This document shows positions 1 to 59,188 of a stretch of 64,000 nucleotides of DNA, piece after piece. The notes under the pieces were generated by a model, which saw only the letters and a program-made list of their open reading frames with translations, was not told the origin of the DNA and searched no databases. The DNA is from Octopus vulgaris. Taxonomy: Eukaryota. The stretch is taken from contig OX597828.1 in the NCBI GenBank assembly GCA_951406725.2, forward strand, positions 77,810,001 to 77,874,000. The letters run 5' to 3'. Position 1 is the stretch's first letter. Every line of letters starts with the position of its first letter. The translations under genes and the position numbers were made by a program.

Positions 1-3000
1 TTAGATCATGCATAACAGATTCAATGGTTTATTTTTAAATCACCTGGATTCAATTAAAGCTGCAGGCAAATCTCTAAGCAAGGTATTCCAATATGATTCC
101 TCATTGTGTATTTCTGTAAGGATTTTTACTTTACTGCTCAAGTTAGGGTTCAATTGTCAAATTTCTGCAACTTCCCTATGGATGGCTGGTTTTTGTTCAA
201 CATCAAAAGTGAGATGAGACATATAGGTCAGCCATTGAAAAGACTAATTTTAGAGTTGGACCATTTCCCAGAGACTATCCATTATAGAATCATAATACAC
301 CAGGCCCAGAATTGTCAAAAAATTAGTGGGGCATTGAAAGCAAATAGAAATATGACACAAATTCATGATAATGGCAGGGGGTGGGGGATTTATCTATTTT
401 GATTACTGTAGCTGAGGGCCAAAATGGTTTTGAGACCAAGATGTCACCATTATATCAGAGATCTCAAGAGAATTCATACAACAACACACACACACACCAA
501 AGTCTCTCACATATACAAATAATGTTGATATTCGTCACTGGATGAGCTGTTACCTGCAGCTCTGCTTCTAACGAAATCATAATCTTGAGAGCTCTGAGCA
601 TCTATATTGATCTATTGTATAATACATAGTCTAGCACTGTCTGTACTTTACCGAGCAGTAGTAAGTGACTGACTGACTGGTAAACTCAGTCAAACAACTG
701 GCTCCAACACAACAAAACAAATGAGAGCCTCTATCCAGTCACCCAAGAAATAACAGCTAAATCCTAAATCGCTTTCACATTACACCATTTTAGGAAGAAC
801 ACTTTGAATAATGCAACTCTGAGACACTACCTCTAGGAAAAAGTAAGAATATTCATAGCTGGAATTCTTTTGAGAGCATGGGTCTCCGTAACTGAAGCTG
901 AGCTGGGCTCAAGAACCCAAGTAGGTTATTATGAGGTGTAGTAGTCAAGGTATGCTGTAGGTTCTGATAGTAGCTATAGAAGAGGAACAAAGAATTCAAC
1001 AGAAATGGAAAAGTTGCTGCTGCATACACAACTTTAGCAGTGTGCATCACAGAGGTATGTTTATGACTTCAGGTGCAGGGGTGGGAGGCTGGGGTGGGAG
1101 AAGTAGAGTTCTGAGGATGAGAGCATAGTAACGTAGCAGTATTCATTAGTGTGTCACAGGAGTCAGTCTCTCTCTCTCTCTCTCTCTCAGGCAGTTTTCC
1201 CAGCAGAATCGACAGGTGTCGCTGGGATGAAATTGATAAAAACTACTTTCACAGACACTGATACAAACACCACAAAAATCGGGTCTTTTGTGCAAATTCT
1301 TTTACCGGCCTTGACATAACAAAGACAAAATAAATATCGGTTTCAAATTTTGGCACAGGGCCAGCAATTTTGGAGGAAGGGGCCAAGTTAAATACATTGA
1401 TCCAAATGCTCAGCTGGTACTTATTTTACTGACCCTGGGAGGATGGAAAGTAAAGTCAACCTCAGTGGAGTGTGAACTCAGGACATAAAGACGGATGATA
1501 TGAAAATAAAAATGACCTACAGTGTATTAAGAGACCAACACATTTGCAGAGTAACAGGGTAATATTATAGCCAGATTCCACCGAGGTTGACTTTGCCTTT
1601 CGTCCTTTCAGGGAGTCGATAAATTAAATACCAGTTGCATACTGGGGTTGATCTAATCGACTGGCCCCCTCCCCAAAAATTTTGGGCCTCATGCCTAGAG
1701 TAGAAAAGAATATTTTAGCCAGATTATATCTTCAAATTCATTCCATAGTTAAGTCTGTTTACTTCCTGGTGTAAAGTGAAAAATAATCGATAACAACTCT
1801 TAAGGTAAAAGAGGTGATAAGCGTATGACAAGGAATATAGCTTTTCAGAGGTGCTGTCTCCTAAGAATGCATATTCAATACTACCTAGGTGGACTTTTAC
1901 ACCACTTAAAGAGTCAAATGTGGAAGTGCGATGGTCCAGTGGTTAGGGCAGCGGACTTGCGGTCGGATGATCGCAGTTTTGATTCCCAGACCAGGCGTTG
2001 TGTGTGTTTATTGAACAAAAATACCTAAAAGTTGCACGACGCTCCAGCAGAGAGTGGTGGCGACCCCTGTTGTACTCTTCCGCCCCAATTTTTTCTCACT
2101 CTCTCTTCCTGTTTCTTGAGTAACGCTGCAATGGACTGGCGTCCCATCCAGTTGGGGAGAACACATATGCCACAGAAAGCAGGAAACCAGGCATGTGAGC
2201 CTGGTTAGGTTTGAAAAGGACGTATAAATAAAAAAAAAAATAAGAGTCAAATGGAATTTTTAAAAGAAATTATATCTCATGGTTCTACATAAACTTACAA
2301 CTATCTTTCAATTTTCAAAGGAACAACAGAATTTCCACAAGTGCTGATTATTTTCATAATTACCAACAGCAGTAGACAATCACAAATGTATACAATCATC
2401 ATCATCATCATTTAATGTCTGCTTTGCATGGGTTGGACAGTTTGACCGAAGCTGACCAGCTAAAGGACTGGTCAGGTTCCATGTCTGTTTTGGCTTGGTT
2501 TCTATGGTTACTGGATGCCCTTCCTAACACCAACCACTTCTCAGAGTGTACTGGGTGCTTTTCATGTGGCACCAGCACTTACAAGCCCACAAGGTTAGGG
2601 ATGCTCAGCTGGAGAGGGTTGCAAGGGACAAGCCTGTAGGCAAGGGCAACAAAGCTTTTACAGAGCTCAGCCTGTCTTTTCAAGCACAGCAAACTGCCAG
2701 GAGTCTTGGTCCCCAGTCATCCCCTCTCTGAGTCCCAACATTTGCAGATCCTTTCTCACCACTTAGTCCTATGTCTTCCTAGGTTTACTCCTTCCACATG
2801 CTCCCTTTACAATAAGAGACCAGCACCTCTTGATGCAACTGTCCTCATTCATATGCATTACATGGCCATACCAGCGCAGTCTTCTCTCTACATCTGATGC
2901 TACGTATACCCAATTTTTCTCTCAAATCACTTACACATTTTTGTAAATGCACACCGCCATTACCCATCCAGCAAAGCATACTAGCTTCATTTCTTTCAAG

Positions 3001-4941: not shown

Positions 4942-5015
4942 ATTTTTTGATTTTTCCAGTTTCAGCTTATGAGCTGTGGCCATGCTGGGGCACCGCCATT
5001 TGTATATGTGTATAT

Positions 5016-11001
<5,986 letters not shown>

Positions 11002-11166
11002 TTCAAATTACGATGAACGTAAACAAACAAACGAAGTTTGCTTTAAAAGCGTTGAGATGTCTTAGAAAGTTAAAGAAGTGATTTTAAATTCTCAAAATAC
11101 AGGATGATGCTAATAATATAGCCTGAACAGGATAAGCTACCCCTATTTTGCAGAAAAAAGTGTTGG

Positions 11167-11243
11167 CAGCCAGCTATGAGACTCGAACTCACACCTCCGT
11201 GATTACGCGTCGCAGTGCTCTGAACCATTAAGCTAAACTGCTC
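11167..11243 (-). pseudogene. tRNA-derived sequence (SINE head or tRNA pseudogene)
   Basis: Minus strand GCAGTTTAGCTTAATGGTTCAGAGCA...GTGAGTTCGAGTCTCAT has an A box, a B box and a T-arm; the anticodon stem is imperfect. Confidence 0.55.
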
Positions 11244-14234: not shown

Positions 14235-14522
14235 AGCACCATCCGATTGTGGCCGTTGCCAGCCTCGCCTGGCCCCCGTGCCGGTGGCATGTAAAAAGCA
14301 CCATCCGATCGTGGCAGTTTGCCAGCCTCGTCTGGACCCTGTGCCGGTGGCACGTAAAAAGCACCCACTACACTCACGGAGTGGTTGGTGTTAGGAAGGG
14401 CATCCAGCTGTAGAAACATTGCCTGATCAGACTGGGCCTGGTGCAGCTTTCTGGCTTCCCAGACCCCAGTTGAACCGTCCAACCCATGCTAGCATGGAAA
14501 GCGGACGCTAAACGATGATGAT
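14235..14522 (+). mobile_element. SINE or short retroposed fragment sharing the RTE 3' UTR (other copies near 38817-39100 on -, 51830-52365 as an inverted pair, 59052-59190 on +)
   Basis: TGGCACGTAAAAAGCACCCACTACACTC...GTTAGGAAGGGCATCCAGCTGTAGAAAC...CCATGCTAGCATGGAAAGCGGAC..AAACGATGATG is closely similar to 8060-8242. Confidence 0.85.
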
Positions 14523-20162: not shown

Positions 20163-20585
20163 TATATATATATATATATATACGTGGAGCGTATAAGATG
20201 TAATTCATTTATGCAGATGTAATATACATGCACACACACACACACATATTATGTATATATACGCACACACATATGCATGTAGGTGTAATATATGTGAATA
20301 TGGTGTATAGATAGATGTAAAAATAATATAGCAAAACGCTTTTGAAGTAAAATGTGAACTGTTTTGGTGTAATGTGTGTTTACACATCTGTGCTAACATC
20401 ATGTGTATAAATGTGATTTCTGCGTGTGTGTGTATGTGTATATATACCTATATATATATATATAGTGGAGGGTTGTTGTAAAGTCTGGAAATAGAGATGA
20501 GTAGAGTGTTAAGGAAGGAAGAAGTTGTTGAGAGAGAGAGAAGACTAACTTTAAAGATGGGCAGAGAGAAATTGTTAAAACTTAC

Positions 20586-21025
20586 TTTTGTTCATCCACA
20601 TGGGGTTGGTTATTCGTTCGTAGTAATCTTCCAGTTCAGGGAGCGAATCGTCGACTGCTTTCAGGAATGGCCAATTGACCGCCTTATTAGAATCGGCCAT
20701 CAGTTCACAGAGAATTCGATAACCGTGTTCGAGTTCAGTGTTGAGCGGTGCTTTTTGAGGGGCAAGTGGTGTTGTTGTTGGTGTTGATGCGGTTGTATGT
20801 GGTGTTGGTGATGCTGGCAATGCTGGTGGTGATGACCTGTCCGTATTAGAATTGCCTTCGTCCCCATCATCATCATCATCATCATCATTATCTTCCTCCT
20901 CCTCCTCATCATCATCATCTTCCTCATCATCATCATCATCATCATCATTATCGTCGTCGTCGTCTTCATCGACGTCACCGTTCAACTCCATAGCGTTGTT
21001 GTTGTTGCTGCTATTACTGTTGTCA

Positions 21026-21056
<31 letters not shown>

Positions 21057-21321
21057 GGTCACCAGCAGCAACACCTATGAAGGTCTCTTGCGTCTGATGT
21101 CTTTCTGCCACCTGAACTGTCGTTGATGAAGATGACAAGGATGATAACGACGACCAAGAAGAGGAAGACGATGACGACGATGTTGTTGTTGCTGTTGTTG
21201 TTGGTGGCTGTCGTGCTTCTTCAGGTGGTGGACTATGGTTCGTTGTTGTTGTTGTTGTATACAGGGCAACTTTCCTTTCCATTGCTGTCGGAGGACCTTC
21301 GTCAATTGAAGAAGATTCCAT
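20586..21321 (-). CDS. BRD10: First coding exon of a bromodomain protein, KIAA2026/BRD10-like (low-complexity acidic N-terminus plus N-half of the bromodomain)
   Basis: ATG in CCACCATGG context at 21321. ELEHGYRILCELM...WPFL...DYYERITNPM is bromodomain helix Z/ZA loop, and GYRIL.E is recalled from KIAA2026. Phase-1 donor A|GTAAGT at 20585. Acceptor TTTTAG at 21499-21500 places the exon start at 21498. Confidence 0.75.
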
Positions 21322-22266
21322 GGTGGTACAAAGTTCATCCAGGCAGTCATGAAGGATTTAGGGGACTTGAAGGGGCTTTGTTGGTGTTAGTGTAGCTATT
21401 GGTAGAGTTATTGTGATTTTCCTTTCAGAATTTAGGATATATGTCAGGGAGGGGTGGCATGACGGGAAAGACTGGCTGTCACAGTTTCTAGGTCTCGGCT
21501 AAAATATAAAACAAAAAAAATAAGTACAAGAGAAATATACAAAATAAATTTAACAAAAAAAAACAATTAACCACAAAATTTGGAGAGAATTATTAGCCAG
21601 AAAATGATGTTGGTTTGTCCGACCGGTTGTTGTCTAATAAATATCACATCATTATTATTATTATTATTTGTAATCTGTGGTGAAGGGGTTGAGGGTTAAG
21701 CCAGCATTTGCTCGAGATAATCCGTGGGATTAGTGAAGGGGAGGGGACAGTAGAGAGACATTCATTAGCATCAAAATAGGAATTTTAAAGACAATAAGGG
21801 TCTGTTGGGTCCCTTGAAGCGAGTCAAAACTAGCCGAAGGGCTAAACATGTTTAAAATGTAGAAATGAAAGCAAGTCCCAAGAATGACAACATAATCTCC
21901 ATCTAGAAAAGACAGAGTGTGAGGAGAGAGAGAGAGAGAGATAAGAGTGTGAGTGAGGGGCATGACGAGAGAGAGAGAGAGAGATAGAGAACAAAAAGAG
22001 AGGGAGCACATAAAAAATTGTGTGAGGGAAAGAGTGACAGAGACGGCGAGTGAAAGAGAGAGCAGAGTGTGTGTGTTTGTTTTAAGAGAACAAAGTTGAA
22101 AAAGACAATTCTGTTGTAAAGAAACGATCATGGCAACAGGGTAAAATAGTGGAAAAGTGAATTTATAAAGCGAGAATAATTAGTAAGAATATTTGTCACA
22201 CCTGCATTATAAATCATCTTCATAGATGCACAGAGCAAAATGACCCAATCACCATGAGGTACTTAC

Positions 22267-34587: not shown

Positions 34588-34872
34588 GGTCCACCTACAT
34601 ACATTTTGTTTGTCCAACACCCTGGGCCCACCCACATTTTGTTTGCCTAACACCCTGGGTCCACCTACATACATTTTGTTTGTCCAACACCCTGGGCCCA
34701 CCCATATATATATTTTGTTTCTCCAACACCCTGGGCCCATCCACATTTTGTTTGCCTAACAATCTGGGTCCACCTACATACATTTTGTTTGTCCAACACC
34801 CCGGGTCCACCCACATTCGTTTTGTCCGACACCCTGGTTCCACCTACATATTTTGTTTGTCCAACACCCTAG
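34588..34872. repeat. Minisatellite, about 8 units of 33-38 bp
   Basis: Unit ATTTTGTTTGTCCAACACCCTGGG(T/C)CCACC(TACAT)AC, with long and short variants. Confidence 0.9.
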
Positions 34873-34992: not shown

Positions 34993-35250
34993 TACAGTTC
35001 TATATTTAAGAGATGAGGAATTGTGTACATTATTTACATTTTGCGTAGTGGTTAAAAGCATGGGCTACTAACCCCAGATTCCGAGTTTGATTCCAGGCAG
35101 TGACCTGAATAATAATAATAATAATAATATCAAAAAATAGCTTCGGAACGAGAACCCAGGTTCGAAATTTCCCCAAGATGAAGGCTTGAGGGTCCATCAG
35201 CAGAAACAAACAAGATGAGGACGAATATCGTCAAATGTAAATAATGTAAA
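34993..35250 (+). mobile_element. tRNA-headed, hammerhead-tailed short element, copy A
   Basis: Colinear with 48601-48876. The tRNA-like part GCGTAGTGGTTAA...GGGCTACTAACCCC...GAGTTTGATTCC is present; the ribozyme core is partly deleted; terminal inverted arms are present. Confidence 0.75.
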
Positions 35251-37433
35251 TAAAGTAGTGTTGTTTAGTCACAGGTGAAGAAAAGCAGTTATGACCTTAA
35301 CTGGGATTCTGAAACTGAGAAAAGAATGAGAGGAAGAAATTGGGTTAACGCTGTGTTTAACGTTAAATCTAACCTGAAACAATACAGGAATATTGTAGGT
35401 GTGCTATTATTGAGAATTACATACACCAGTGCCTCTCCATTTCAGATTTTGTTCTATTTATAAATACACAGTATAGCTGTAATTTAAACGTACTATATTT
35501 ATAGTAGAAAACTCTTTAATTTCATGTTATAGTTGATGAATTTCACTAAACTTGGTACAGTAATACACATCACACAGGTCCATCTCACCACACCTCAGTT
35601 ACCACAGTGGTCTATGAAGTTCAACTGTTCAACACCTTAATAATAATTATAAGAAGAATTCTTTCTGTTATAAGCAGAAGGCCTGAAGATTTGGGTGTGA
35701 TGGAGCTGGTTCCCGAAAGGATGAAAAGGAAAGCTGACCTCAGTGGAATTTGAACTCAGAATGCAAAGCCAGAAGAATTGCTGCTTAGCATTTTGTCCAC
35801 TGTTCTAACAATTCTGCCGGCTTCACCACCCTTTAGTAACAATTTCATATTTTGGCACAAGGCTAGGAATTTTGTGGGGAGGAAGTTTCTTAGATTGACC
35901 CCGTATTTAAATGGTACTTTATCAATCTCCAAAAGGATAAAAGGGGTGAGTTGAACTCAGAACATAAAGAGCTGGAAGAAATACTGTTGTGTGTATTGCC
36001 CTAATGACTCCAACACAAGTAACGGGGACAAAGGTATTGATTAACTCCTTACCCCTAAAATCGATGACTTTCTGCCTAAATTAGAATTTATTATTAGGGC
36101 AGAATCTTTAGCACTTTAAACAAAATGCTTAACACTATTTCTTTCCCTTCTTTATTGACACCCTCTTCAGATTTAAGAAAGTAAGTACCAGTAATGCACT
36201 GGGGTTGGTGTAATCAACTTTCCCCTCCTCTCAAAATTTATGGTCTTGTCCCAAAATTAGAGAAGATTATTAAGGTGGAAAGCTGGCAGAATCATTAACA
36301 GACGAAATTCTTTGTGGCATTTCCTCTGGTTTTCCATTCTGAGTTCAAATTCCCACAAGGCTGACTTTGCCTTTCATTCTTTCAATCAATCAAGCACAGG
36401 GTGAGGGGTAGGGGTCAGTGTCATCAACTCAACCAGTGGTTCTCAGCCAGTGTCCATATTTTTGTGAGGTCCATGCAACAAAATAGTTAATTGGAGACCC
36501 ACAGTAATATTTTAAGGGTCCCTAAAAAACTTTTGTTTCAGATGTATGTATTGGTAGAAGCAGATGCATTTCTTTCCCTTACATTTTACTTAGTTCAACT
36601 CAGACCAAGTTAGTGTGAGAAAAAACAAAATAGGAATTTTGGAAGACTGACAGGATATATAGACACAGCATGTAGATGTTGGTTGGATAGGTAGACATTG
36701 CGTGAAGATAAGAGACACTCTGTCATTTATAACGACAAGGTTTCCAGCTGATCTGATCCTCAGAAACAGACTGCACATGGAATTAATATGCAAGTGGTTG
36801 AGCACTCCACAGACACCCCTACTCTTAGTGTAGTTCTCAGGGATATTCAGTGTGACAAGGCTGGCCCCTTTGAATCACAGGTACAACTCATTTTTGCCAT
36901 CCGAGTGGACTGGAGCAACATGAAATAAAGAGCCTTGCTCAAGGACACAATGCATCGCCGGTAATTGAACTCGTGACCTTATGATAATGAGCTGAATAGC
37001 ATAACCACTAAGTCAAGTGCTTTCCCTGTATGTAGATGTTGACTGTATATATAGACATATCATGACTGGCTGGCTCTTGCGCCAGTGGCACGTAAAAAGC
37101 ACCCATTACACTTGCAGAGTGAAGGAAGGGCATCAAGCTGCAGAAACCTTGCCAGATCAGATTGGAGCCTGGTGCAGCCTTCTGGCTTGCCAGTCCTCAG
37201 TCAATCCATCCAACCCATGCCAGCATGGAAAGTGGACATTGAGCAACAATGACGATTTCAATAAAACTAGTTTTTAAACATCGAATGCCTGTACTGATCC
37301 ATCAGATTGAAATAGTAACCAAAGGGATCAAAAGATAAAAAAAGGTTGAGAACCCCTGAAGTAGACCCTCTTCCACCACAAAAATTCAGGCCTGGAAAGA
37401 ATTGTTGTTGATGCATTTTGTTTTCCTTTGTAG

Positions 37434-38815: not shown

Positions 38816-39190
38816 TCATCGTTTAACGTCCGTTCTCCATGCTAGCATGGGTTGGACGGTTCGACCGGGGATCTGGGAAGCCAGAAGGCTGCACCAGGCT
38901 CCGGTCTTATCTGGCAATGTTTCTACAGCTGGATGCCCTTCCTAACGCCAACCACTCCGTGAGTGTAGTGGGTGTTCTTTACGTGCCACCTGCACTGGAG
39001 AGCCAGGCGAGGCTGGCATCGGCCACGGTCAGATTGGTGCTTTTTACGTGCCACCGACACGGAAGCCAGTTGAGGCGGCGCTGGCATCGGCCAATCCTTT
39101 CTGGCTAATCGTTGAAAGGACATTGGTGTTGCTTTGGTGGAGGTTTGTTCTCTCTGAGTGATCTTGTTATTATTTATTATTATTTTTCAG

Positions 39191-39374
39191 AGTGGATGTA
39201 CAGATGACAGGAACTTACAAGATCTGCTTTGACAATACCTTCAGCCGATTCTTCAGGAAAGTCGTCTATTTTGACATCATCACAGAGAATGAAGAAGATG
39301 ATGAGAATGGAAATTGGACTTTCAGTAAAGAAGATGCTGCAGAGTTGATGGACATTAAACTTGATGATTTTAAA
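39191..39374 (+). CDS. TMED5: p24-gamma exon 3 (end of GOLD domain, start of coiled coil)
   Basis: TTTTCAG|A VDVQMTGTYKICFDNTFSRFFRKVVYFDI...LDDFK|GTAAGT; phases 2 and 0. Confidence 0.95.
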
Positions 39375-40329
39375 GTAAGTCTGCTCTTGTTGTTGTTGTT
39401 ATTGTTTAACCCTGTGTCAGCTGAGATCTTCTCATCTTTTAACATCTATCATTGGTCAGTTATTGATCACACCATTTTTCAGCATCATCGTCTGTCATTT
39501 CTTTTAAAGTTTGCATTGTGTGATTTGAGGAAGATTGAGCTCCTATTTCTAGCGATACATAGAGGCTTCTCTTGTTGACTTGTTTTTGTTGTTACTTGAA
39601 CTGGTGGTGATGGTGTCGGTGGAGACACTGATATTACTGTTTGACCCCTTGTAAGCCTATGTCATGCTCCTCACAGTAATACTGGATTAAAAGGATTACA
39701 CAGCACCTCTACACTTTCTCCACCTGTTTGCCATCAACTTTACTGTTAGTGGAGGTGTGTAGCTTAGTGGTGAGGGTGTTGGACTCAGGATCCTAAGGTT
39801 GTCGTTGCAATCCATGGACCGGGCGACGCATTGTGTCCTTGAGCAAAACACTTCATTTCACGTTACTCCAGTCCACTCAGCTGGCAAAAATGAGGAATCC
39901 GGTGTCCCATCAAGGTGGGGAGTATTTACTTCATGAAAGCTGGGAAACCGGTCCTTATTAGTCAGAATGACTCAAGAAGGTCATTTTACAGTTAGTTGTG
40001 TAGAGACAATCCAAGACTGCATTATAACTATCTCATTACTTTTGTCAGTTGTTAGCAGTCAGGAAACTACTTCCTTCAAAACTTCCGTGCTTCCTGGAAT
40101 TTGCCAACAGTGCACCCATACACACCCACTCCCACCCCACCCTTTAATTAACTCAAGGTACATGTGTGGTAGTGTGGTTAAGAAGTACATACTGGCAAAC
40201 ATGTCATTTCAGGTATAGCCAGATTTAAGGGAGCAGGGGCAATTGCCCAGGAGTATCACTGTTAGAAGGAGGTCCACTGGCCCCGAGTACAAACATAAAG
40301 GAATCTCCTTTCCAACTACAGGATTGGGC

Positions 40330-48600: not shown

Positions 48601-48876
48601 TACAGTTGTGTATTTGAGAGATGAGGAATTATGTACATTATTTACATTTGACGCCACATGCCTGTGGGCATATGGCGTAGTATTAAGAGCACAGGCTACT
48701 AACCCCAGGCAGTGACCTGAATAATAATAATAACATCGAAAAATAGCTTAGGAATGAGAACTCAGGTTCAAAATTTCCCCAAGACACCTGATGAAGGCTG
48801 GAGGTGTATATCAGCTGAAACATGTTAACAACAAACAAGAGGAGAACAAATATCTGTCGAATGTAAATAATGTAAA
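48601..48876 (+). mobile_element. tRNA-headed, hammerhead-tailed short element, copy B
   Basis: A box TGGCGTAGT, T-arm deleted; CTGATGA-AGGCTG-loop-CAGCT-GAAA-CATGTT at 48788-48826; 19-bp inverted arms at 48634-48652 and 48856-48874. Confidence 0.75.
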
Positions 48877-51137
48877 TTGAGTTTTGACTTTTGTTTCTGA
48901 CATTTTTGTTCAGTTAATTCTTTACCTGGTGTCAGTGCTTGGACCATGACCATGCTGGAGTAACATCTCCAAGAGCATAGTTGATTACTTTGATTTATTT
49001 TACAGCAATACTTTTTTTTTATCGACTTTGAAAATTAAAATGGTAAGTAGTTCTGGTCAGGATTTCAAAATCATAACTTCAATCATCATTTAACGTTTGT
49101 TGTCCACGCTGGCATGGGTTGGTTGGTTGGTTGGTGTGACTGGAACTGGCAAGCTAGGAGGCTGCACCAGACTTCATTCTGATTCAGCATCGTTTCTACA
49201 GCTGGATACCCTTCCTAACATGCCAACCACTGCAGAGCCACGTTTACATAACACCACACAGGCACTTTTATGTGTCACAGCACTGATGCTTTTATGTGTT
49301 GCTGCATGGATGCTTTTACATGTTGCCACATGAAGCTTTTATGCATCACTGCACAAATGCTTTTACATATTGTCACACAGGTGCTTTTATGCGGCACCAA
49401 TATATTTATTTATTTTTTTGCAACACATTTATCTTCTATATTTTATGTTTCAGTCATTGGACTGCAGCCATGTGGTCAGGAGGTGGGGCACTATCTTAAA
49501 GGGTTTTAGTTAAACAAATGAACTCCACAATTTATTTTTTCCTTTAAGTTTGGAATTGATTCTATTTATATTAATTTTATATACACAGATTAGCGAATCA
49601 TTAAATCATCCAATTATTTGGGTGACAAAACCATAAATACTAATGGCGAAGCAAGTCTGGAGAGAGCCGAACAATCAAGGAGTCTTAACTGATGAAGCAA
49701 CGGAGATTGCCAAAACTGATGTCAGTATGATGAATTCTCAATCAGCATTTTTCGGATAATTATGCTCCCTGTTAGTGTATATGCTTCCATTCATGTGCAT
49801 TAACTACAACATTAGAGCAGTTTAGCTCTTATTTCTAGCAATGTAGGTGTTTTCTAAAACCCTAACTACATTTAGTGACATTTGTAATTCTCTTTTTTGT
49901 TGAAACATTGCAACTGCTATCATCACATTACACCACCCTGCACACACTAGCACTGACCACTTCCCAGCACCCACACATACAGGCTCTTACATATGCATGC
50001 GCACCTTTGTTTTGGGATCACCACTACTTTATTATCTCCCCTCCTTCCTAGCTCTCCTGTCTGACATTTGCCATGAAAGATCACTAACCACTAAACCTTT
50101 TTTTATTCCCTATTTTTTCATGTTCCTTTCTATTGAAGAGCATAGTCTTGAAACGTAAAAGACTTTCTCACCTTCCCGAGCATTAAACTAATACACCTGT
50201 TTGTTGTTTACACACCTGTCTTCGTCTTTTGTTTTTATTTTTGTAAATTCCAACTAAAATGTATATATATGGGTGTATATAGCTTTTGTTTACCAAATCC
50301 ATTCACAAGGCTTTGATCAGCCCAGAGTTATAGTCGAAGACACTTGCCCAAGGCACCACACAGAGGGACTGATCCTGGAACCATGTGGTTGGGATGCAGA
50401 CGTCTAACCACACACTCCCAACTACACCTATAAAGGAGGAACTTGGTAAAATAACTTTGTCAATTATTAAGCTGGCTTTTGTTGCCAACTGACATGAAAT
50501 TTTCGTGGGAGCTTTTAATTCTGATTCCTTTAGGACAGGAAGTTTGTGTGTCCGAGAACAACCAGTGAGGATGGTCTCAGATGAGTTGGTCTGGTTTCAT
50601 TTCATTTTATGCTAATTATTTATGATCATTAAAAAGGAAGAGAGCATTATACGAATCTTATTTATGTCCTCCAAATCTGTGGCTCTCTACAATAGCCCAC
50701 CACTCATTATTTGTAACCTAATCAAAAAAAGAAATAAAATATAAATGCTACTGACCTCATTCGCATGCTGGGCAAAATGAAGAGTGGCATTTCATGTCTG
50801 TATGTTCTGAGTTCAAATTCCACCAAGGTCGACTTTGCCTTTCATCTTTCTGTGTCAATAAAATAAGTACCAGTTGAATACTGGGGTCGATGTAATCAAC
50901 TTACCCCTCCCAACAAAATTACTGACCTTGTGCCAAAATTTGAAACCAGTATTTCATAAATCCTTCTTCCTATCATTTCCGTCTCTTTTGGTCACCAGAT
51001 GCTGCCATTGTTGTTTAACCCTAGGTCAAACTTGATCAAGACATTCCAGACAGGACCATTCTACTTCCATTTTCTTATCACAACGTACAGGAATGGCATA
51101 TATGGTATCTGATGTCACTTTTATGCCATTATATATA

Positions 51138-52366
51138 CAGGGTGGCCATAAAGTCACGCACCATCCTGCAATATGTGAAATGGCTAACATTCTCTTTTTT
51201 TTTTTTTATCTCTTTTCACAACTGCCGGTATTACTCACAAACCAATCCTTATTGGATGGAGGCAAATAATCAACAAGGCGGGGGCAAGGTAATGGTGTGG
51301 TGTGGAATTTGGCACAATCAAATAATTGGACCGTTTTATTTTGAAGGCTCTGTGACAGGTGATTCGTATCTGGATATGTTTGGCAACAAGATGATGCCTC
51401 ACCTGCATTCACCTGGAAGGGGAAATCCTGTCTGGTTTCAGCAGGATGGGACTCGGCCTCCATTATGCATTACAGGTTCATGATTTTCTGAATGAACAGT
51501 TTCCATGGAGACGGCTCAGGTGTCGCAAGCCAATTGAATGGGCACCACAGTCACCAGACTTAATTCCCATGGACTTTTTTCTTCTGGGGCTATATTAAAT
51601 CCCTTTATTCTTTTATTTGTTTCAGTCATTTGGCTGTGGCCATGCTGGAGGACTGCTTTTAGTCAATCAAATCGGCCCCAGGACTTATTCTTTGTAAGCC
51701 TAGTACTTATTCTATCAGTCACTCTTGCCAAACTGCTGAGTGACGGGGACTTAAACACACCAGCATCAGTTATCAAGCGATGTTGGGGGGACAAACACAG
51801 ACACACAAACATATATATATACCTTACTGGCACCTGTGCCAGTGGCATGTGTAAAAAGATTTGAGTGAGGTCATTACCACTACCGCCTGACTGACCCCTT
51901 GCCGGTGGCACGTAAAAGCACCCACTACACTCTCAGAGTGGTTGGCATTAGGAAGGGCATCCAGCTGTAGAAACTCTGCCAGATCAAGATTGAAGCCTAG
52001 TGCAGCCATCGGGTTCGCCAGACTTCAGTCAAATCATCCAACCCATGCTAGCATGGAAAACGGACGTTAAACGATGATGATGATGATCATCATCATCATC
52101 ATCAGCGTTTAACGCCCGCTTTCCATGCTAGCATGGGTTGGATGGTTCAACTGGGGTCTGGGAAGCCAGAAGGCTGTGCCAGGTCCAGTCTGATCTAACA
52201 GTGTTTCTACAGCTGAATGCCCTTCCTAACGCCAACCACTCCGAGAGTGTAGTGGGTGCTTTTTATGTGCCACCTGGACAGGTGCCAGACGAGGCTGGCA
52301 AATGGCCATGATCGGATGGTGCTTTTTACGTGCCACCAGCACGGGGGCCAGACAAGGCTGGATGAC

Positions 52367-55155: not shown

Positions 55156-58100
55156 TTATTTCTTGAAGTTCTTTATGCGTTGTGCATTGAAATGTTTTCC
55201 CAGCCTCATTACAAGAGGAAGTGGTGATGCAGGGTTTGGTTTTGATTCTAGTTTGGCGTCATCTGTATAACAACGGTCTTTGAGATCAATATCTGTGTTC
55301 ATCTTAACACAGCTCTTGTAATTATCGAATGTATCATCAGAGTTATCTGAAGAATTAGGAGAAAAATTTAGATAATCCCAACAACATTTTACTGGATTAT
55401 TCTGATTAATTGATCTCGGAGTTATTGTTTTGGTGACATCAAATGGGGAGAAAGAATCATCGAAACCAGAAAGGTAACTCATCTCTTCAAACATTGAAGA
55501 ACCTCCCTGCTGAAATGACGTTTGCTTTGGACTACTATGAATATTTTCACAAGACAATGAACTTATATATCCTTCATGCGGAGACTTGACTTTAGTGTTC
55601 TCATTCTCTAAACCTGCAGACTCTTTTGAAGATTTAAAAATCAATTTATCATTTAATCCAGTTCTTAAATTTTCTTGAAGAACAGAAGCAGAAGAATTTG
55701 GTACTGCACCAGACATTTCATGTGAACCAACTGTTGTATTGTAAGAAAAACTGGCATCATTATTTGGAGATTTCAGAAGACTTGATGTCTTCTCTACAGA
55801 ACTGATGTAAGGAGACAAAATAAAACATGAATTCTTTTGCAAATTGGTCAGAGAGTTCTTTCTACAAGAATATTTAATTTCCATCTGGTTTTTATAACCA
55901 GAATTAGTTGTCGAGTTGAATATATGAGTCTTCATGTTTTCAGAAATTTTAGGAGAATCAGAATCCAACTTGAATTCAGAAGAATTGTCTAAAAGAGAAG
56001 AGATGAGTTCAAAATTCCCCACCCTGCTTTCACTGAAAGAATTCAGAGAGTCAGGTGTTAAGTTATAAACAGCATCCATAATTGAAGAATAATCTTCAAA
56101 CGATGAGTATGGAATTGCATCTTCTTCAGGATCCTTGTTAGAGACAGGGAATTCTTGCATGGCTAAAGCACCTCCTGGCGTCTTTGATCCATGAAACTCT
56201 ACTACTGTGTTCCCTGAAACTGTGATGTCTGACACACTTTCAGACAAATTCTCAAGATGCTGAGAAGCAGTTTCAGTTTTGGTTGGATTTAAACAATGAT
56301 TTGATATCAAGGAACTATTTTTGAGAACATGATCAGGACTTACAGAGTTTTTGTCATTCATAAACAGCATAGAACTGTCTTCGGGGGTCTGAGAATGGTT
56401 ACTTATGTCAGAAATAGTATTACTAACAGAAGTGGAATTACAAAAAAGAAGGGATGCATTGTCTTCTCCGTTTATAGAATAGTTTGAAATTGTGTTGCTA
56501 CAGTTTCTATGTTGAAGAGATTCATTGAAAGACGTCTTCAAACTGGGTGGCAAGGAACAGCATGGACCCTCCTGTACATCATGGAGGGAAAAGTCTCCAG
56601 CAGAATAGAATTTTGTGTCTTTGGTCGACAATCTGCTTCCATCTTTTATGGGTGGGTGTAGTGATTGATTTTCAGCTAAAAGTTGAATGGCATCTGTCTG
56701 GGATGGAACTTCAAGAGTATTAGTGCAAAGTTGGGTCGCATCAGTAACAATATCTGTACATAGCAGTGTGGCATCTGTACAGAATGACCCCTCAACAGGG
56801 TCAGTACACAGCTGTGTAGCATCTGTATTAAATGACCCCTTAACAGGGTCAGTACACAGCTGTGTAGCATCTGTATTAAATGACCCCTCAACAGGGTCAG
56901 TACACAGCTGTGTAGCATCTGTATTAAATGACCCCTCAACAGGGTCAGTACACAGCTGTGTAGCATCTGTATTAAATGACTTCTCGATAGTGTCTGTAGA
57001 CAGCTGTGTAGCATCTGTACTGAATGACCTCTCAACAATGTCCATACACAGTTGTGTAGCATCTGTACTAAATGATCTCTCGATAATATCTGTATACAGT
57101 CGTGTAGCATCTGTACAGAATGACCCCTCAACAGGGTCAGTACACAGCTGTGTAGCATCTGTACTAAATGATCTCTTGATAGTGTCTGTAGACAGCTGTG
57201 TAGCATCTGTACTGAATGACCTCTCAACAGTGTCTGTACACACTTGTGTAGCATCTGTAGACTTCTCAACAGTGTCTGTACACACTTGTGTAGCATCTGT
57301 ACTACATGACCTCTTCATAGCATCCGTATATAGCTGCTTGGCATCTGTACCAAATGACCTCTCGACAGTGTCCTTACACTGTTGAAGTGTAGCCATTGAT
57401 ACCATTCCAGAAAGATTTGATGACAAAGCTTCTACTTCATTTACATTCAACAGGAAGAACTGTTCAGTTATTTCAGCCATTTTGGATAACTGAGAATTGT
57501 CAAAGGGTTCAGCAGAATTATCTGGAAATTTTTGAGAAAACTCTATTGATTTATTCAGTTCTTCCATTCTTTCACAATGGTTTATTTTGATGCTGTCATC
57601 ACATGGAATCTGAGAGGAATCTAATGGGAGGCATTGGTTAGACTGAAAGTTATCTTCGTTTTGAGACTCACCAGAAATTTGGTAACGGTTAAGCAGTTTG
57701 TGAGAAACAGGAAGATATAGGCTATCATCAGAGTCTTCATCATTGGAAGAGTCTATCTCTGGACAGGAGGAATAAGAATTTCCTGTTAAATCAATTGACT
57801 CAATAGTACTGGCACCGTGACCGATGGTATTGGTCTGTTGATCAGAACACATTGATACACTTGCAGAGTTTCGGATTTGACTCCTGCTTTTGGAGTCTGT
57901 TTCAGAGTTAGTTTCTGATTTAATGGAATTGGTAAATGATGGTAATAATGATGTTCTAGACATTTCCTTCTTTGGTTTATGGTTTTGAATTTGTACACAA
58001 GAGTTCTTTATTCTTTCTTTAAGAGGTAAATATTCATCATCAGAAATGTCTGGCTCAGAAGACTCAGTACTGTTACACCTTAAATTGGTCAGCCCAGCAC

Positions 58101-58376
58101 CAGAAGAAGGTTCCTCATTCTGAGAAACAGAAGATAAACAATTTCTTATAGATTCTTCATTAAAAGCCATAAGAACTGGTTCACATGCAAATCTTGCTGT
58201 GTGTTTCTCTCTTTTGGCAGGGAATTCCTCACTGGTCCCTTTCACAGTCTTCTGTGTAGCAGCTGCTTCGTTTGGTTTCAGAGTAAGTCCTTCCATACTC
58301 AGCAACAAAACTTGTTGGGACTCGGCTGAGTTTGCCTCTGGTTGGCTCTTTTTTGTCTTGCTGCTAATTCTGGAGG
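55156..58376 (-). CDS. GEN1: Large terminal exon of a GEN1-like Holliday-junction resolvase (disordered C-terminal tail)
   Basis: 3.2-kb uninterrupted Ser/Asn-rich ORF. Acceptor TTTCTCCTTTCAG at 58377-58378 is phase 1 and matches the upstream exon. Terminal SPLPLVMRL resembles the recalled GEN1 SPLPL..RL end motif. Confidence 0.75.
56684..57397 (-). repeat. Coding tandem repeat, 48 nt / 16 aa, about 15 units (TDATQLCTDPVEGSFN)
   Basis: Unit ATCTGTATTAAATGACCCCTCAACAGGGTCAGTACACAGCTGTGTAGC on +; length variants are in frame. Confidence 0.95.
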
Positions 58377-59188
58377 CTGAAAGGAGAAATTGATAAACAC
58401 CAGCTACATACACTTCATGAAATATATCTATATATATATATATATATATATTATTATTATTATTATTATTATTATCATTATTATTATTAGGGAATATTAC
58501 TTCCGAGTACACAGAAAAAAGACATTCAAATTAGACGTACTAAAATGAACATCTCTCAATGTTTAATTCGTATATATAAAAGTAATTTTAAAGACAGAAC
58601 CACCTTCAACTCAACACTCAAAGATTTTATACCCGACTATTCCATAAAATGTTAAAAATTAAATCTTATACTAACTATATCTATTCTGAATCCTGTATTT
58701 TCCGTTTAAAAGACTACTCGTGTTTCATGAAAATACGTCGGTATTGATTAGATACGAGGTATCTAGTTTCAATACTTAATTGGGTTGACATACTCCCAAT
58801 CTTCAGGTCTGGATTCCTCAACATTTTCCACTACCCCTAACTCTTATATACCTCCATGATACTCTATATCATCACTATAATCTTACTTAACATATACAAA
58901 TGAATAGAAATACAATTAATAAATAAAAATATATATATATACACACACACACATTTATATATTCATACTAGCATTATGTGCTAGTGCATGTATATATGCG
59001 TATATATACGTGTACATATTACATGTATATCTATATATATACATCTACACATTGGCGTTAGGAAGGGCATCCAGCCGTAGAAACACTGCCAGATCTGACT
59101 GGGCCTGACGAAGCCTTCCAGCTTCACAGACCCCAGTTGAACCGTCCAACCCATGCTAGCATGGAAAGCGGACGCTAAATGATGATGA

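What the first reader, a model, noticed from the sequence alone, without database searches (positions are those of the whole stretch)
48601..48876. Short element family joining a tRNA-derived Pol III head to a hammerhead ribozyme tail, bracketed by inverted arms (copies at 34993-35250 and 48601-48876)
Seen: two colinear ~260-280 bp copies with the order left arm TACATTATTTACATTT(GAC), tRNA-like segment, (AAT)n, conserved linker, CTGATGA/helix II/GAAA/palindromic ACATGT, right arm GTC(G/A)AATGTAAATAATGTA. The copies have complementary deletions (B lacks the T-arm/B box, A lacks the start of the CTGATGA core), so the ancestor had both modules. Established: Penelope-like elements and retrozymes carry minimal hammerheads with a palindromic helix III and often insert with an inverted partial pLTR; ordinary SINEs borrow LINE tails. 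Inference: a Pol III SINE whose RNA end is made by self-cleavage and which is mobilised by a Penelope-like RT, i.e. a SINE-retrozyme hybrid. I cannot tell whether it has been described.
Basis: partly seen in the sequence, partly recalled or inferred. Interest (0 to 1): 0.75.

Follow-up and report, generated by a model that had tools for sequence, protein, structure and literature searches.

The report
Penelope end repeat with tRNA-derived promoter

Summary
The two copies are real, but they are not a SINE with a borrowed tail. They are solo pseudo-LTRs (pLTRs) of an autonomous Penelope/Poseidon-type retrotransposon with about 20,000 pLTR copies (RT + GIY-YIG, 835-codon majority frame). The tRNA-Arg-derived head, (AAT)n, minimal hammerhead and tail are all part of that pLTR. 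Inverted arm, one-sided tail and minimal hammerhead are known PLE features; both window hammerheads are broken. Copies end 50-90 nt past the predicted cut, so self-cleavage does not make their end. Unusual: 33 of 48 copies that reach the A box stop at the tRNA start (6% expected), short and long copies share subfamilies, and the 2,665-nt unit has no TTTT on its sense strand (P about 0.03; 1 of 24 other PLE frames has none). So the head likely works as a Pol III promoter, possibly for the full element. Also, 44 of 298 copies lack exactly the triplet before the hammerhead cut, arising arm by arm: a possible footprint of cleavage in vivo. Nothing is shown at the bench. The scan reached the pLTR reading before on other DNA of this genome (e1-8669850).

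The parts
48601..48653 (-). Copy B, inverted 5'-truncated arm: pLTR positions +232..+284, with the 33-bp Penelope-type tail
   Evidence: blastn to family reference, 92% over 53 bp; alignment
48652..48677 (.). Copy B, palindromic junction at the pLTR 5' end (12-bp arms, 2 mismatches, 2-nt centre)
   Evidence: sequence; 16 such junctions among the fetched loci
48666..48719 (+). Copy B, tRNA-Arg-derived head; A box damaged, 20-nt deletion removes the B box
48720..48734 (+). Copy B, (AAT)n tract
   Evidence: sequence
48754..48756 (+). Copy B, ATG that opens the element's reading frame in the family majority (+129)
48783..48826 (+). Copy B, minimal type I hammerhead, broken: cleavage triplet deleted, so helix I cannot form in the palindromic register
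48827..48877 (+). Copy B, pLTR 3' part ending at the first end cluster (about +251..257), no tail
34993..35041 (-). Copy A, inverted 5'-truncated arm: pLTR +236..+284 with the tail
   Evidence: blastn 96% over 49 bp
35043..35107 (+). Copy A, tRNA-derived head starting inside the A box (about +10); B box present with a CpG change
35108..35129 (+). Copy A, (AAT)n tract
   Evidence: sequence
35177..35206 (+). Copy A, hammerhead remnant; 7-nt deletion at the core start and 14-nt deletion over the cut site
35207..35253 (+). Copy A, pLTR 3' part, no tail

Best explanation
The two copies are decayed solo pLTRs of an autonomous Penelope/Poseidon-type retrotransposon whose pLTR begins with a tRNA-Arg-derived A/B-box segment, and this segment likely acts as an internal RNA polymerase III promoter that sets the 5' end of the element's RNA. 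Shown: pLTR identity, the head as part of the pLTR, the two 3' end clusters, the pile-up of 5' ends at the tRNA start, no TTTT on the sense strand. Inferred: Pol III starts about 7 nt before the tRNA-like sequence and, meeting no terminator, can read head, hammerhead, tail, the 835-codon frame and the second pLTR. The RT then starts inside the RNA at one of two tail sites (known for anole Poseidon). Priming in the first pLTR, or on an RNA from a solo pLTR, runs off at the tRNA start and gives the SINE-like 260-290 bp copy; priming in the second pLTR gives ordinary 5'-truncated copies; two independent primings give the head-to-head pair with the tail on one arm. The hammerhead is mostly uncut in the templates; in about one copy in seven the RT probably crossed a cut RNA by a 2-nt microhomology and lost the cleavage triplet.
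For: Endonuclease end followed by the head in 20 of 20 loci; tail followed by the ORF N-terminus in 10 of 25 loci, one (L071) starting at tRNA +4. Majority of 10 near-full copies gives one open frame with RT and C-terminal GIY-YIG-type motifs (Pfam RVT_1 E 5.5e-10). Head vs a tRNA-Arg(TCT) gene of the same genome: 9/11 in the A box, 9/11 in the B box, 6/7 in the anticodon loop, 17/44 elsewhere, stems broken; best score 64 vs at most 48 in 300 shuffles; tRNA profile E 3.8e-4. 5' ends: 33 of 48 stop at -16..+12, 6% expected, binomial P about 1e-28; 25 of 37 in a partly overlapping tail-anchored sample; 27 of 30 head-anchored copies. Genome-wide exact 34-mers fall from 2,457 in the head to 460 just upstream. 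No TTTT in the 2,665-nt unit: P 0.009 by base shuffle, 0.028-0.039 by synonymous-codon shuffle; 42 private TTTT runs in 101 kb of copies, none shared by more than 4 of 46; 24 other PLE frames: 149 observed, 141 expected, 1 with none. Short and long copies share four variant sites (P 0.25-0.69). Tail on exactly one arm in 36 of 40 pairs. Triplet deletion in 44 of 298 copies, next indel 11 of 313; discordant in 15 of 18 pairs against 10 of 24 for subfamily markers, P 0.011.
Against: No transcription start or Pol III occupancy was observed: the RNA runs are unstranded, follow the genomic copy profile and show no start or end pile in the pLTR. The TTTT result is one modest P value; GGGG is also absent (1.07 expected, P 0.28), three control frames have only 0.4-0.8 TTTT per kb and one family copy has 3 in 1.7 kb. 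Other PLEs also have a sharp, often palindromic pLTR 5' edge without any tRNA (Adineta, PMC3846280 passages). Of 3 long copies whose 5' pLTR reaches the head, 2 run on into an upstream endonuclease end, so some templates start upstream of the head. Short copies are slightly less diverged than long ones (3.3% vs 4.3%, P 0.011). ARAGORN (0 of 42 loci) and Rfam call neither tRNA nor hammerhead. No 5' ends pile at the cut site (0 of 90 at +196..200). Translation of an uncapped Pol III RNA is not explained.
Confidence: 0.62

Rival explanations
1. Same element, but the head is a passenger: a tRNA-derived piece with an (AAT)n tail was captured once into the 3' region. The element is read by Pol II from a pLTR promoter or by read-through, and the 5' pile-up comes from a Pol II start or from fold-back at the small palindrome before the head.
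For: D. virilis Penelope has a TATA-less internal promoter (PMC2377424, abstract); Adineta pLTRs have palindromic 5' ends read as self-priming (PMC3846280 passages); 16 palindromic junctions here; 2 of 3 long copies pass the head; none of the related PLE loci with a recognisable hammerhead (19 of 80) has a tRNA-like hit between frame end and hammerhead.
Against: The boxes are kept while the stems are lost; the pile-up sits at the tRNA start; many piled copies have no palindromic junction; the two arms differ at the triplet deletion, so they are not copies of one folded-back cDNA; the centre of the palindrome does not predict which arm has the tail; no TTTT.
Confidence: 0.22
2. Pol III reads only short RNAs from pLTRs, which the RT copies as a built-in SINE, while the protein-coding RNA is made by Pol II. 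(A narrower form of the best explanation, counted partly inside it.)
For: All 5' pile-up data; short copies are a little younger; Kojima argues that weak Pol III processivity bars autonomous elements (PMC10886601 Discussion).
Against: Does not explain the lack of TTTT over 2.5 kb of coding strand; L071 starts at the tRNA head and runs into the frame.
Confidence: 0.3
3. One reading: an independent Pol III SINE that borrowed a Penelope tail, whose RNA end is made by hammerhead self-cleavage (SINE-retrozyme hybrid).
For: Most head-bearing copies lack upstream coding sequence (27 of 30) and look like SINEs; the hammerhead is perfect in 22 of 90 anchored copies.
Against: The head belongs to the autonomous element; no separate lineage; 0 of 90 copies end at the cut; no head-to-tail arrays of the short unit.
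Confidence: 0.07
4. For the triplet deletion alone: RT slippage in the short GT repeat just 3' of helix II, with no cleavage involved.
For: The deletion is bounded by a 2-nt direct repeat; 2-nt and 5-nt deletions on the same repeat also occur; no reads or copies begin or end at the cut; in anole Poseidon uncut RNA is the main substrate in vitro (PMC11167929).
Against: Sites of the same repeat geometry elsewhere in the pLTR show 0-1 such deletions and a true AAC tandem shows 11 of 313; the deleted bases are exactly the last three of the predicted 5' product.
Confidence: 0.45

Closest known systems
Penelope/Poseidon EN+ PLEs, e.g. Poseidon_Ac of the green anole (Frangieh et al. 2024, PMC11167929: abstract, passages, second half of main text) and Adineta Pen2a (Arkhipova et al. 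2013, PMC3846280: passages)
   Same: One frame of about 840 codons with RT and C-terminal endonuclease, pLTR that holds the frame start, hammerhead overlapping the start of the frame, two end sites flanking a 30-40 bp tail, inverted 5'-truncated arm, palindromic junction.
   Different: No tRNA-derived segment or Pol III promoter is mentioned for them ('tRNA' 0 hits in both main texts; supplements not seen). Their promoters are read as Pol II type. No cut-site deletion is reported in the passages seen.
[quoted passage not shown]
   Same: No helix III, palindromic 15.2-16.2, extra base between A9 and G10.1, G10.1-C11.1 pair, 5-bp helix I, larger helix II; mostly dispersed single motifs from truncated PLEs.
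   Different: None in the ribozyme itself; here it lies behind a tRNA-derived head.
Schistosoma SM-alpha / Sj-alpha SINE-like retroposons (known to me from passages of PMC6765202 and PMC8490949; the original paper is not held)
   Same: Pol III-type promoter followed by a type I hammerhead in a short repeat.
   Different: Those are non-coding, tandem and released by cleavage from multimers; this unit is the terminal repeat of a coding element, dispersed or head-to-head, and its ends are not at the cut.
TRIMp3 elements Cassandra, Helenus, Ajax (Kojima 2024, PMC10886601: abstract, Introduction, Discussion read)
   Same: A tRNA- or 5S-derived promoter inside a terminal repeat, boxes kept and RNA fold lost, probable origin by capture of a SINE.
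   Different: Those are non-autonomous LTR elements up to 1.3 kb; the paper expects autonomous partners to need Pol II. Here the terminal repeat belongs to an autonomous 2.9-kb PLE.
Animal non-LTR retrozymes (PMC7761336 passages; bioRxiv 10.64898/2026.07.22.740005 parts 1-3 of 5)
   Same: pLTR-derived short units with a type I hammerhead, moved by PLE enzymes.
   Different: Defined by head-to-tail units each with a ribozyme; none found here, and no tRNA head in the parts read.
Octopus tRNA-derived SINEs of Ohshima and Okada 1994 (seen only as a reference listing; not held)
   Same: Recalled, not checked: tRNA-derived octopus repeats, some of tRNA-Arg origin and one of about this length, so the short unit may have been catalogued as a SINE.
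   Different: Could not compare sequences; no link to a Penelope element appears in anything I read.

Membership tests
Penelope/Poseidon EN+ PLE | Single frame with PLE-type RT | tested here: met
   Majority frame of 10 copies open over 835 codons; Pfam RVT_1 E 5.5e-10 on L074; 1,506 relatives at E<=1e-20
Penelope/Poseidon EN+ PLE | C-terminal GIY-YIG endonuclease | tested here: inconclusive
   Motif VYSIPCSCG..YKGET with later His residues in the translation; Pfam does not call it on the family's own piece but calls GIY-YIG on the relative P0097 at the same motif
Penelope/Poseidon EN+ PLE | pLTR: the same repeat behind the frame end and before the frame start | tested here: met
   20 of 20 and 10 of 25
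Penelope/Poseidon EN+ PLE | Inverted 5'-truncated arm and optional 30-40 bp tail on one end | tested here: met
   51 of 90 copies have an adjacent inverted piece; tail on one arm in 36 of 40 pairs
Penelope/Poseidon EN+ PLE | Clade placement by RT tree | not tested
   No tree built; the assignment rests on domain order, lack of an obvious linker and similarity
Minimal type I hammerhead of PLEs | Core, helices I and II, palindromic 15-16, extra base after A9 | tested here: met
   Family motif and MFE fold; same layout with unrelated helix II sequences in 10 of 12 motifs from related PLEs; N7 is the only common core variant. Not met in the two window copies
Minimal type I hammerhead of PLEs | Self-cleavage as dimer or with protein help | not testable with these tools
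   Co-folding two copies gave another duplex, not the dimeric ribozyme; the triplet deletion is indirect
tRNA-derived SINE (SINE2) | tRNA-derived head with A and B boxes | tested here: met
   not called by ARAGORN or Rfam
tRNA-derived SINE (SINE2) | Copies start at the head | tested here: met
tRNA-derived SINE (SINE2) | Non-autonomous lineage distinct from its partner, sharing only the tail | tested here: not met
   The partner carries the whole unit; shared subfamily variants
tRNA-derived SINE (SINE2) | Transcribed by Pol III | not testable with these tools
   Only unstranded RNA-seq was available
Non-LTR retrozyme | Head-to-tail units, each with a hammerhead | tested here: not met
   0 tail-to-head joins of the short unit in the own-genome loci held
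Non-LTR retrozyme | Circular RNA from cut to cut | not testable with these tools
   No such joint listed; these libraries cannot exclude it

The most novel reading that the evidence does not exclude
An autonomous, protein-coding retrotransposon that is transcribed end to end by RNA polymerase III from a captured tRNA promoter, has purged Pol III terminators from its coding strand, and sheds its own terminal repeat as a built-in SINE; its copies also record, as a fixed 3-nt loss, that the pLTR hammerhead cuts in vivo and that the RT jumps the cut.
Probability: 0.33. Interest if true: 0.82.

Novelty: new variant of a known kind. Interest (0 to 1): 0.55.

Why it matters
Retrotransposons that encode a protein are assumed to need Pol II (stated for LTR elements in PMC10886601). 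A PLE with a tRNA promoter at the first base of its RNA would carry its promoter into every full copy and would show how a SINE can arise from an autonomous element without any tail swap. The role of pLTR hammerheads in vivo is called a mystery in PMC7761336, and reads ending at the cut were not found in anole; a deletion fixed at the cut site in thousands of genomic copies makes that question directly testable. For annotation, about 20,000 copies that look like SINEs are PLE ends.

Tried and rejected
Rfam and ARAGORN: no tRNA or hammerhead call on the copies. Snap-back of one cDNA at the palindrome: predicted that the centre tells which arm has the tail; not seen (GT centre 4 left, 2 right; AC centre 3 left, 0 right). 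Pile-up of 5' ends at the cut: 0 of 90. First estimate of the triplet deletion (19%) was inflated by 30 loci chosen for likeness to copy B (17 of 42 there); 15% without them. A within-genome Poseidon control family: all 30 loci from a distant protein query were this same family. tRNA heads in related PLEs: five tRNA-like hits in 80 loci, all upstream of the RT match, none in a 3' pLTR; the closest relative L305 has no TTTT in its 473-codon stretch but a T-rich 3' region and no head. A first gapless head-tRNA comparison was one base out of register and was redone. No RNA holder on record was listed; raw RNA reads are unstranded and uninformative on start or polymerase. Target-site duplications of the window copies: only a 5-nt and a 7-nt match, not convincing. 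Head as an independent SINE: the 5 of 30 head copies that miss the hammerhead end in or just after (AAT)n, one of them behind an endonuclease end, two being a local duplicate. Literature: nine answered searches and one search listed no paper on a tRNA-derived promoter in a PLE pLTR; Repbase, Dfam, subscription journals, Ferbeyre 1998, Lunse 2017, Ohshima and Okada 1994 and all supplements were not seen.

Full report
Observation. The two copies are in the window as described. A DNA search of the own genome gave 5,003 first-look candidates. An exact 34-mer over the hammerhead occurs 3,926 times, its backwards control never; 37 of 186 copies found by other anchors match that 34-mer, which gives roughly 20,000 copies. 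Coordinates below count from the first base of the tRNA-like head (+1). The host is probably an octopus; this is recall of its repeats and was not tested.

What it belongs to. One locus (L028) held a stretch coding for a GIY-YIG-type motif directly before the same head. With that stretch as query, 20 of 20 loci (one is the query) run from its end into the head after 8 bp. With an N-terminal stretch as query, 10 of 25 loci have the unit's tail directly before the frame start. Ten near-full copies give a majority with one open frame: conserved N-terminal motif, RT, C-terminal endonuclease motif; the repeating unit is 2,665 nt and the frame 835 codons from an ATG at +129, the only in-frame ATG before the conserved motif at residue 84 (the 5' part of that unit came from one copy, L094). 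Pfam calls the RT; it calls GIY-YIG only on a relative. The unit is therefore the pLTR of an autonomous Penelope/Poseidon-type element. All 30 loci from a distant protein query were this family. Contigs of three other coded organisms hold both endonuclease end and pLTR, and one listed contig bridges the two.

Known PLE features explain most of the anatomy. In 90 copies taken in genome order by the hammerhead anchor, 3' ends lie at +244..257 (53) or +280..291 (27), none at the predicted cut after +198. In 36 of 40 head-to-head pairs exactly one arm has the 33-bp tail. This matches the inverted arm and one-sided tail described in PMC8557442 and PMC3846280 (passages) and the two internal RT start sites shown for anole Poseidon, where the frame also begins inside the hammerhead and uncut RNA is the main substrate (PMC11167929). 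The ribozyme is the minimal type of PMC4209133: helix I of 5 bp, core with N7 as the only common variant, an extra A, helix II of 6 bp, palindrome ACGT without a loop. It is perfect in 22 of 90 anchored copies and broken in both window copies. Rfam does not score it.

The head. Among 30 tRNA genes fetched from this genome the best match is tRNA-Arg(TCT): score 64 against at most 48 in 300 shuffles. In register, identity is 9/11 in each box, 6/7 in the anticodon loop and 17/44 elsewhere; the stems keep 3/7, 1/4, 3/5 and 2/5 pairs. Only 30 tRNA genes were compared, so the donor could be another isoacceptor. ARAGORN calls none of 42 loci. In 80 related PLE loci from metagenomes, 19 with a recognisable hammerhead, no tRNA-like hit lies between frame end and hammerhead.

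Evidence that the head sets the RNA start. Of 48 copies that reach +12, 33 stop between -16 and +12 (five of them through a short fold-back palindrome) and 15 continue into the coding region; the background rate predicts 6% (P about 1e-28). A tail-anchored sample of 90, partly the same loci, gives 25 of 37; a head-anchored sample 27 of 30. Genome-wide 34-mer counts drop from 2,457 in the head to 460 just upstream, against 3,926 to 2,457 over the longer way from hammerhead to head (patterns differ in mutability, so these are rough). Short (86) and long (40) copies share four variant sites at like frequencies, so there is no separate SINE lineage; short copies are slightly less diverged (this set includes the 30 loci chosen for likeness to B). 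Caveat: Adineta pLTRs also have sharp, palindromic 5' edges with no tRNA.

Evidence on the full-length RNA. A run of four T ends Pol III transcripts in animals (my knowledge). The sense strand of the whole unit has none, against 30 runs of four A. P is 0.009 by base shuffle and 0.028-0.039 by shuffling synonymous codons. In 72 single copies the 42 runs are private. Of 80 related loci, 24 had a stop-free RT stretch of 400 codons or more; they show 149 runs against 141 expected, median about 3 per kb, one with none. Against: GGGG is also absent (P 0.28), three controls are nearly as low, and 2 of 3 long copies whose 5' pLTR reaches the head continue upstream, while one (L071) starts at +4 and runs into the frame. 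RNA-seq of one coded organism is unstranded, follows the copy profile and shows no pile of starts or ends in the pLTR, so it says nothing on the polymerase.

A possible footprint of cleavage. Without the 30 loci selected by likeness to B, 44 of 298 scorable copies lack exactly 3 nt that can be placed as the triplet ending at the cut; the next indel, in a true AAC tandem, is in 11 of 313; short deletions start about ten times more often per base at +194..200 than elsewhere. In head-to-head pairs the deletion is on one arm only in 15 of 18 pairs that carry it, while minor subfamily alleles are discordant in 10 of 24 (P 0.011). It therefore arises at insertion, and the arms are copied separately. 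A cDNA that reaches the start of the 3' cleavage product ends in two bases that pair again three bases upstream in the 5' product, which gives this loss (inference). RT slippage on the same repeat without a cut is a live rival, and no copies begin at the cut. Window copy B carries this deletion.

Comparison and novelty. It is a member of the EN+ PLEs by frame, pLTR, tail and ribozyme (no tree built). It works like a SINE in that most head-bearing copies begin at the head, but fails the SINE test of a separate non-autonomous lineage, and fails the retrozyme test of tandem units. A Pol III unit with a hammerhead is known from Schistosoma, and small-RNA promoters in terminal repeats from Cassandra, Helenus and Ajax, all non-autonomous; that paper expects autonomous elements to need Pol II. 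Searches listed no paper on a tRNA-derived promoter in a PLE pLTR; passages of octopus and squid repeat papers (PMC13282606, PMC8967140, PMC6962438), of PMC4824008 and of SINEBase do not describe it. Repeat databases, supplements and the 1994 octopus SINE paper were not seen; the short unit may be catalogued there as a SINE.

Verdict. Real feature; ordinary PLE ends in most respects; new variant through the tRNA-derived head. pLTR identity about 0.97; head as Pol III promoter about 0.62; Pol III for the full coding RNA about 0.35; triplet deletion as cleavage footprint about 0.5. Interest 0.55.

Noticed in passing
window 11164-11243 (-): tRNA-Thr(CGT) called by ARAGORN, Rfam tRNA 31.5 bits; gene or SINE head not decided.
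   Followed up: no
window 4951-6757 (+): Two open stretches of a LINE-type endonuclease and RT; used only as a TTTT control.
   Followed up: partly
window about 8200-11000: About 2.8 kb of (TA)n.
   Followed up: no
window 55156-58530 (-): A 1,124-codon open frame that contains a 48-bp minisatellite at about 56657-57384.
   Followed up: no
window 39162-39578 (+) and 20575-21357 (-): Exon-like stretches that resemble an emp24/TMED protein and a bromodomain start; names from recall, not tested.
   Followed up: no
window 34600-34870: A tandem array of about 29-bp units just left of copy A.
   Followed up: no
window 52032-52147: A long hairpin-like palindrome around an (ATG)n centre, part of a repeat with an inverted partner at 14259-14522.
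   Followed up: no
L059:3725-4516: Open stretch of another PLE-like family with a GIY-YIG-like motif; no Pfam call.
   Followed up: partly
P0173 and P0007 N-termini: Two unnamed relatives read through the hammerhead in the same frame as this element, as anole Poseidon does; two metagenome relatives (L301, L325) have stops there, so it is not general.
   Followed up: partly
L247/L248 and L238/L239: Near-identical insertions with shared flanks at two places of contig C1, probably local duplications.
   Followed up: no
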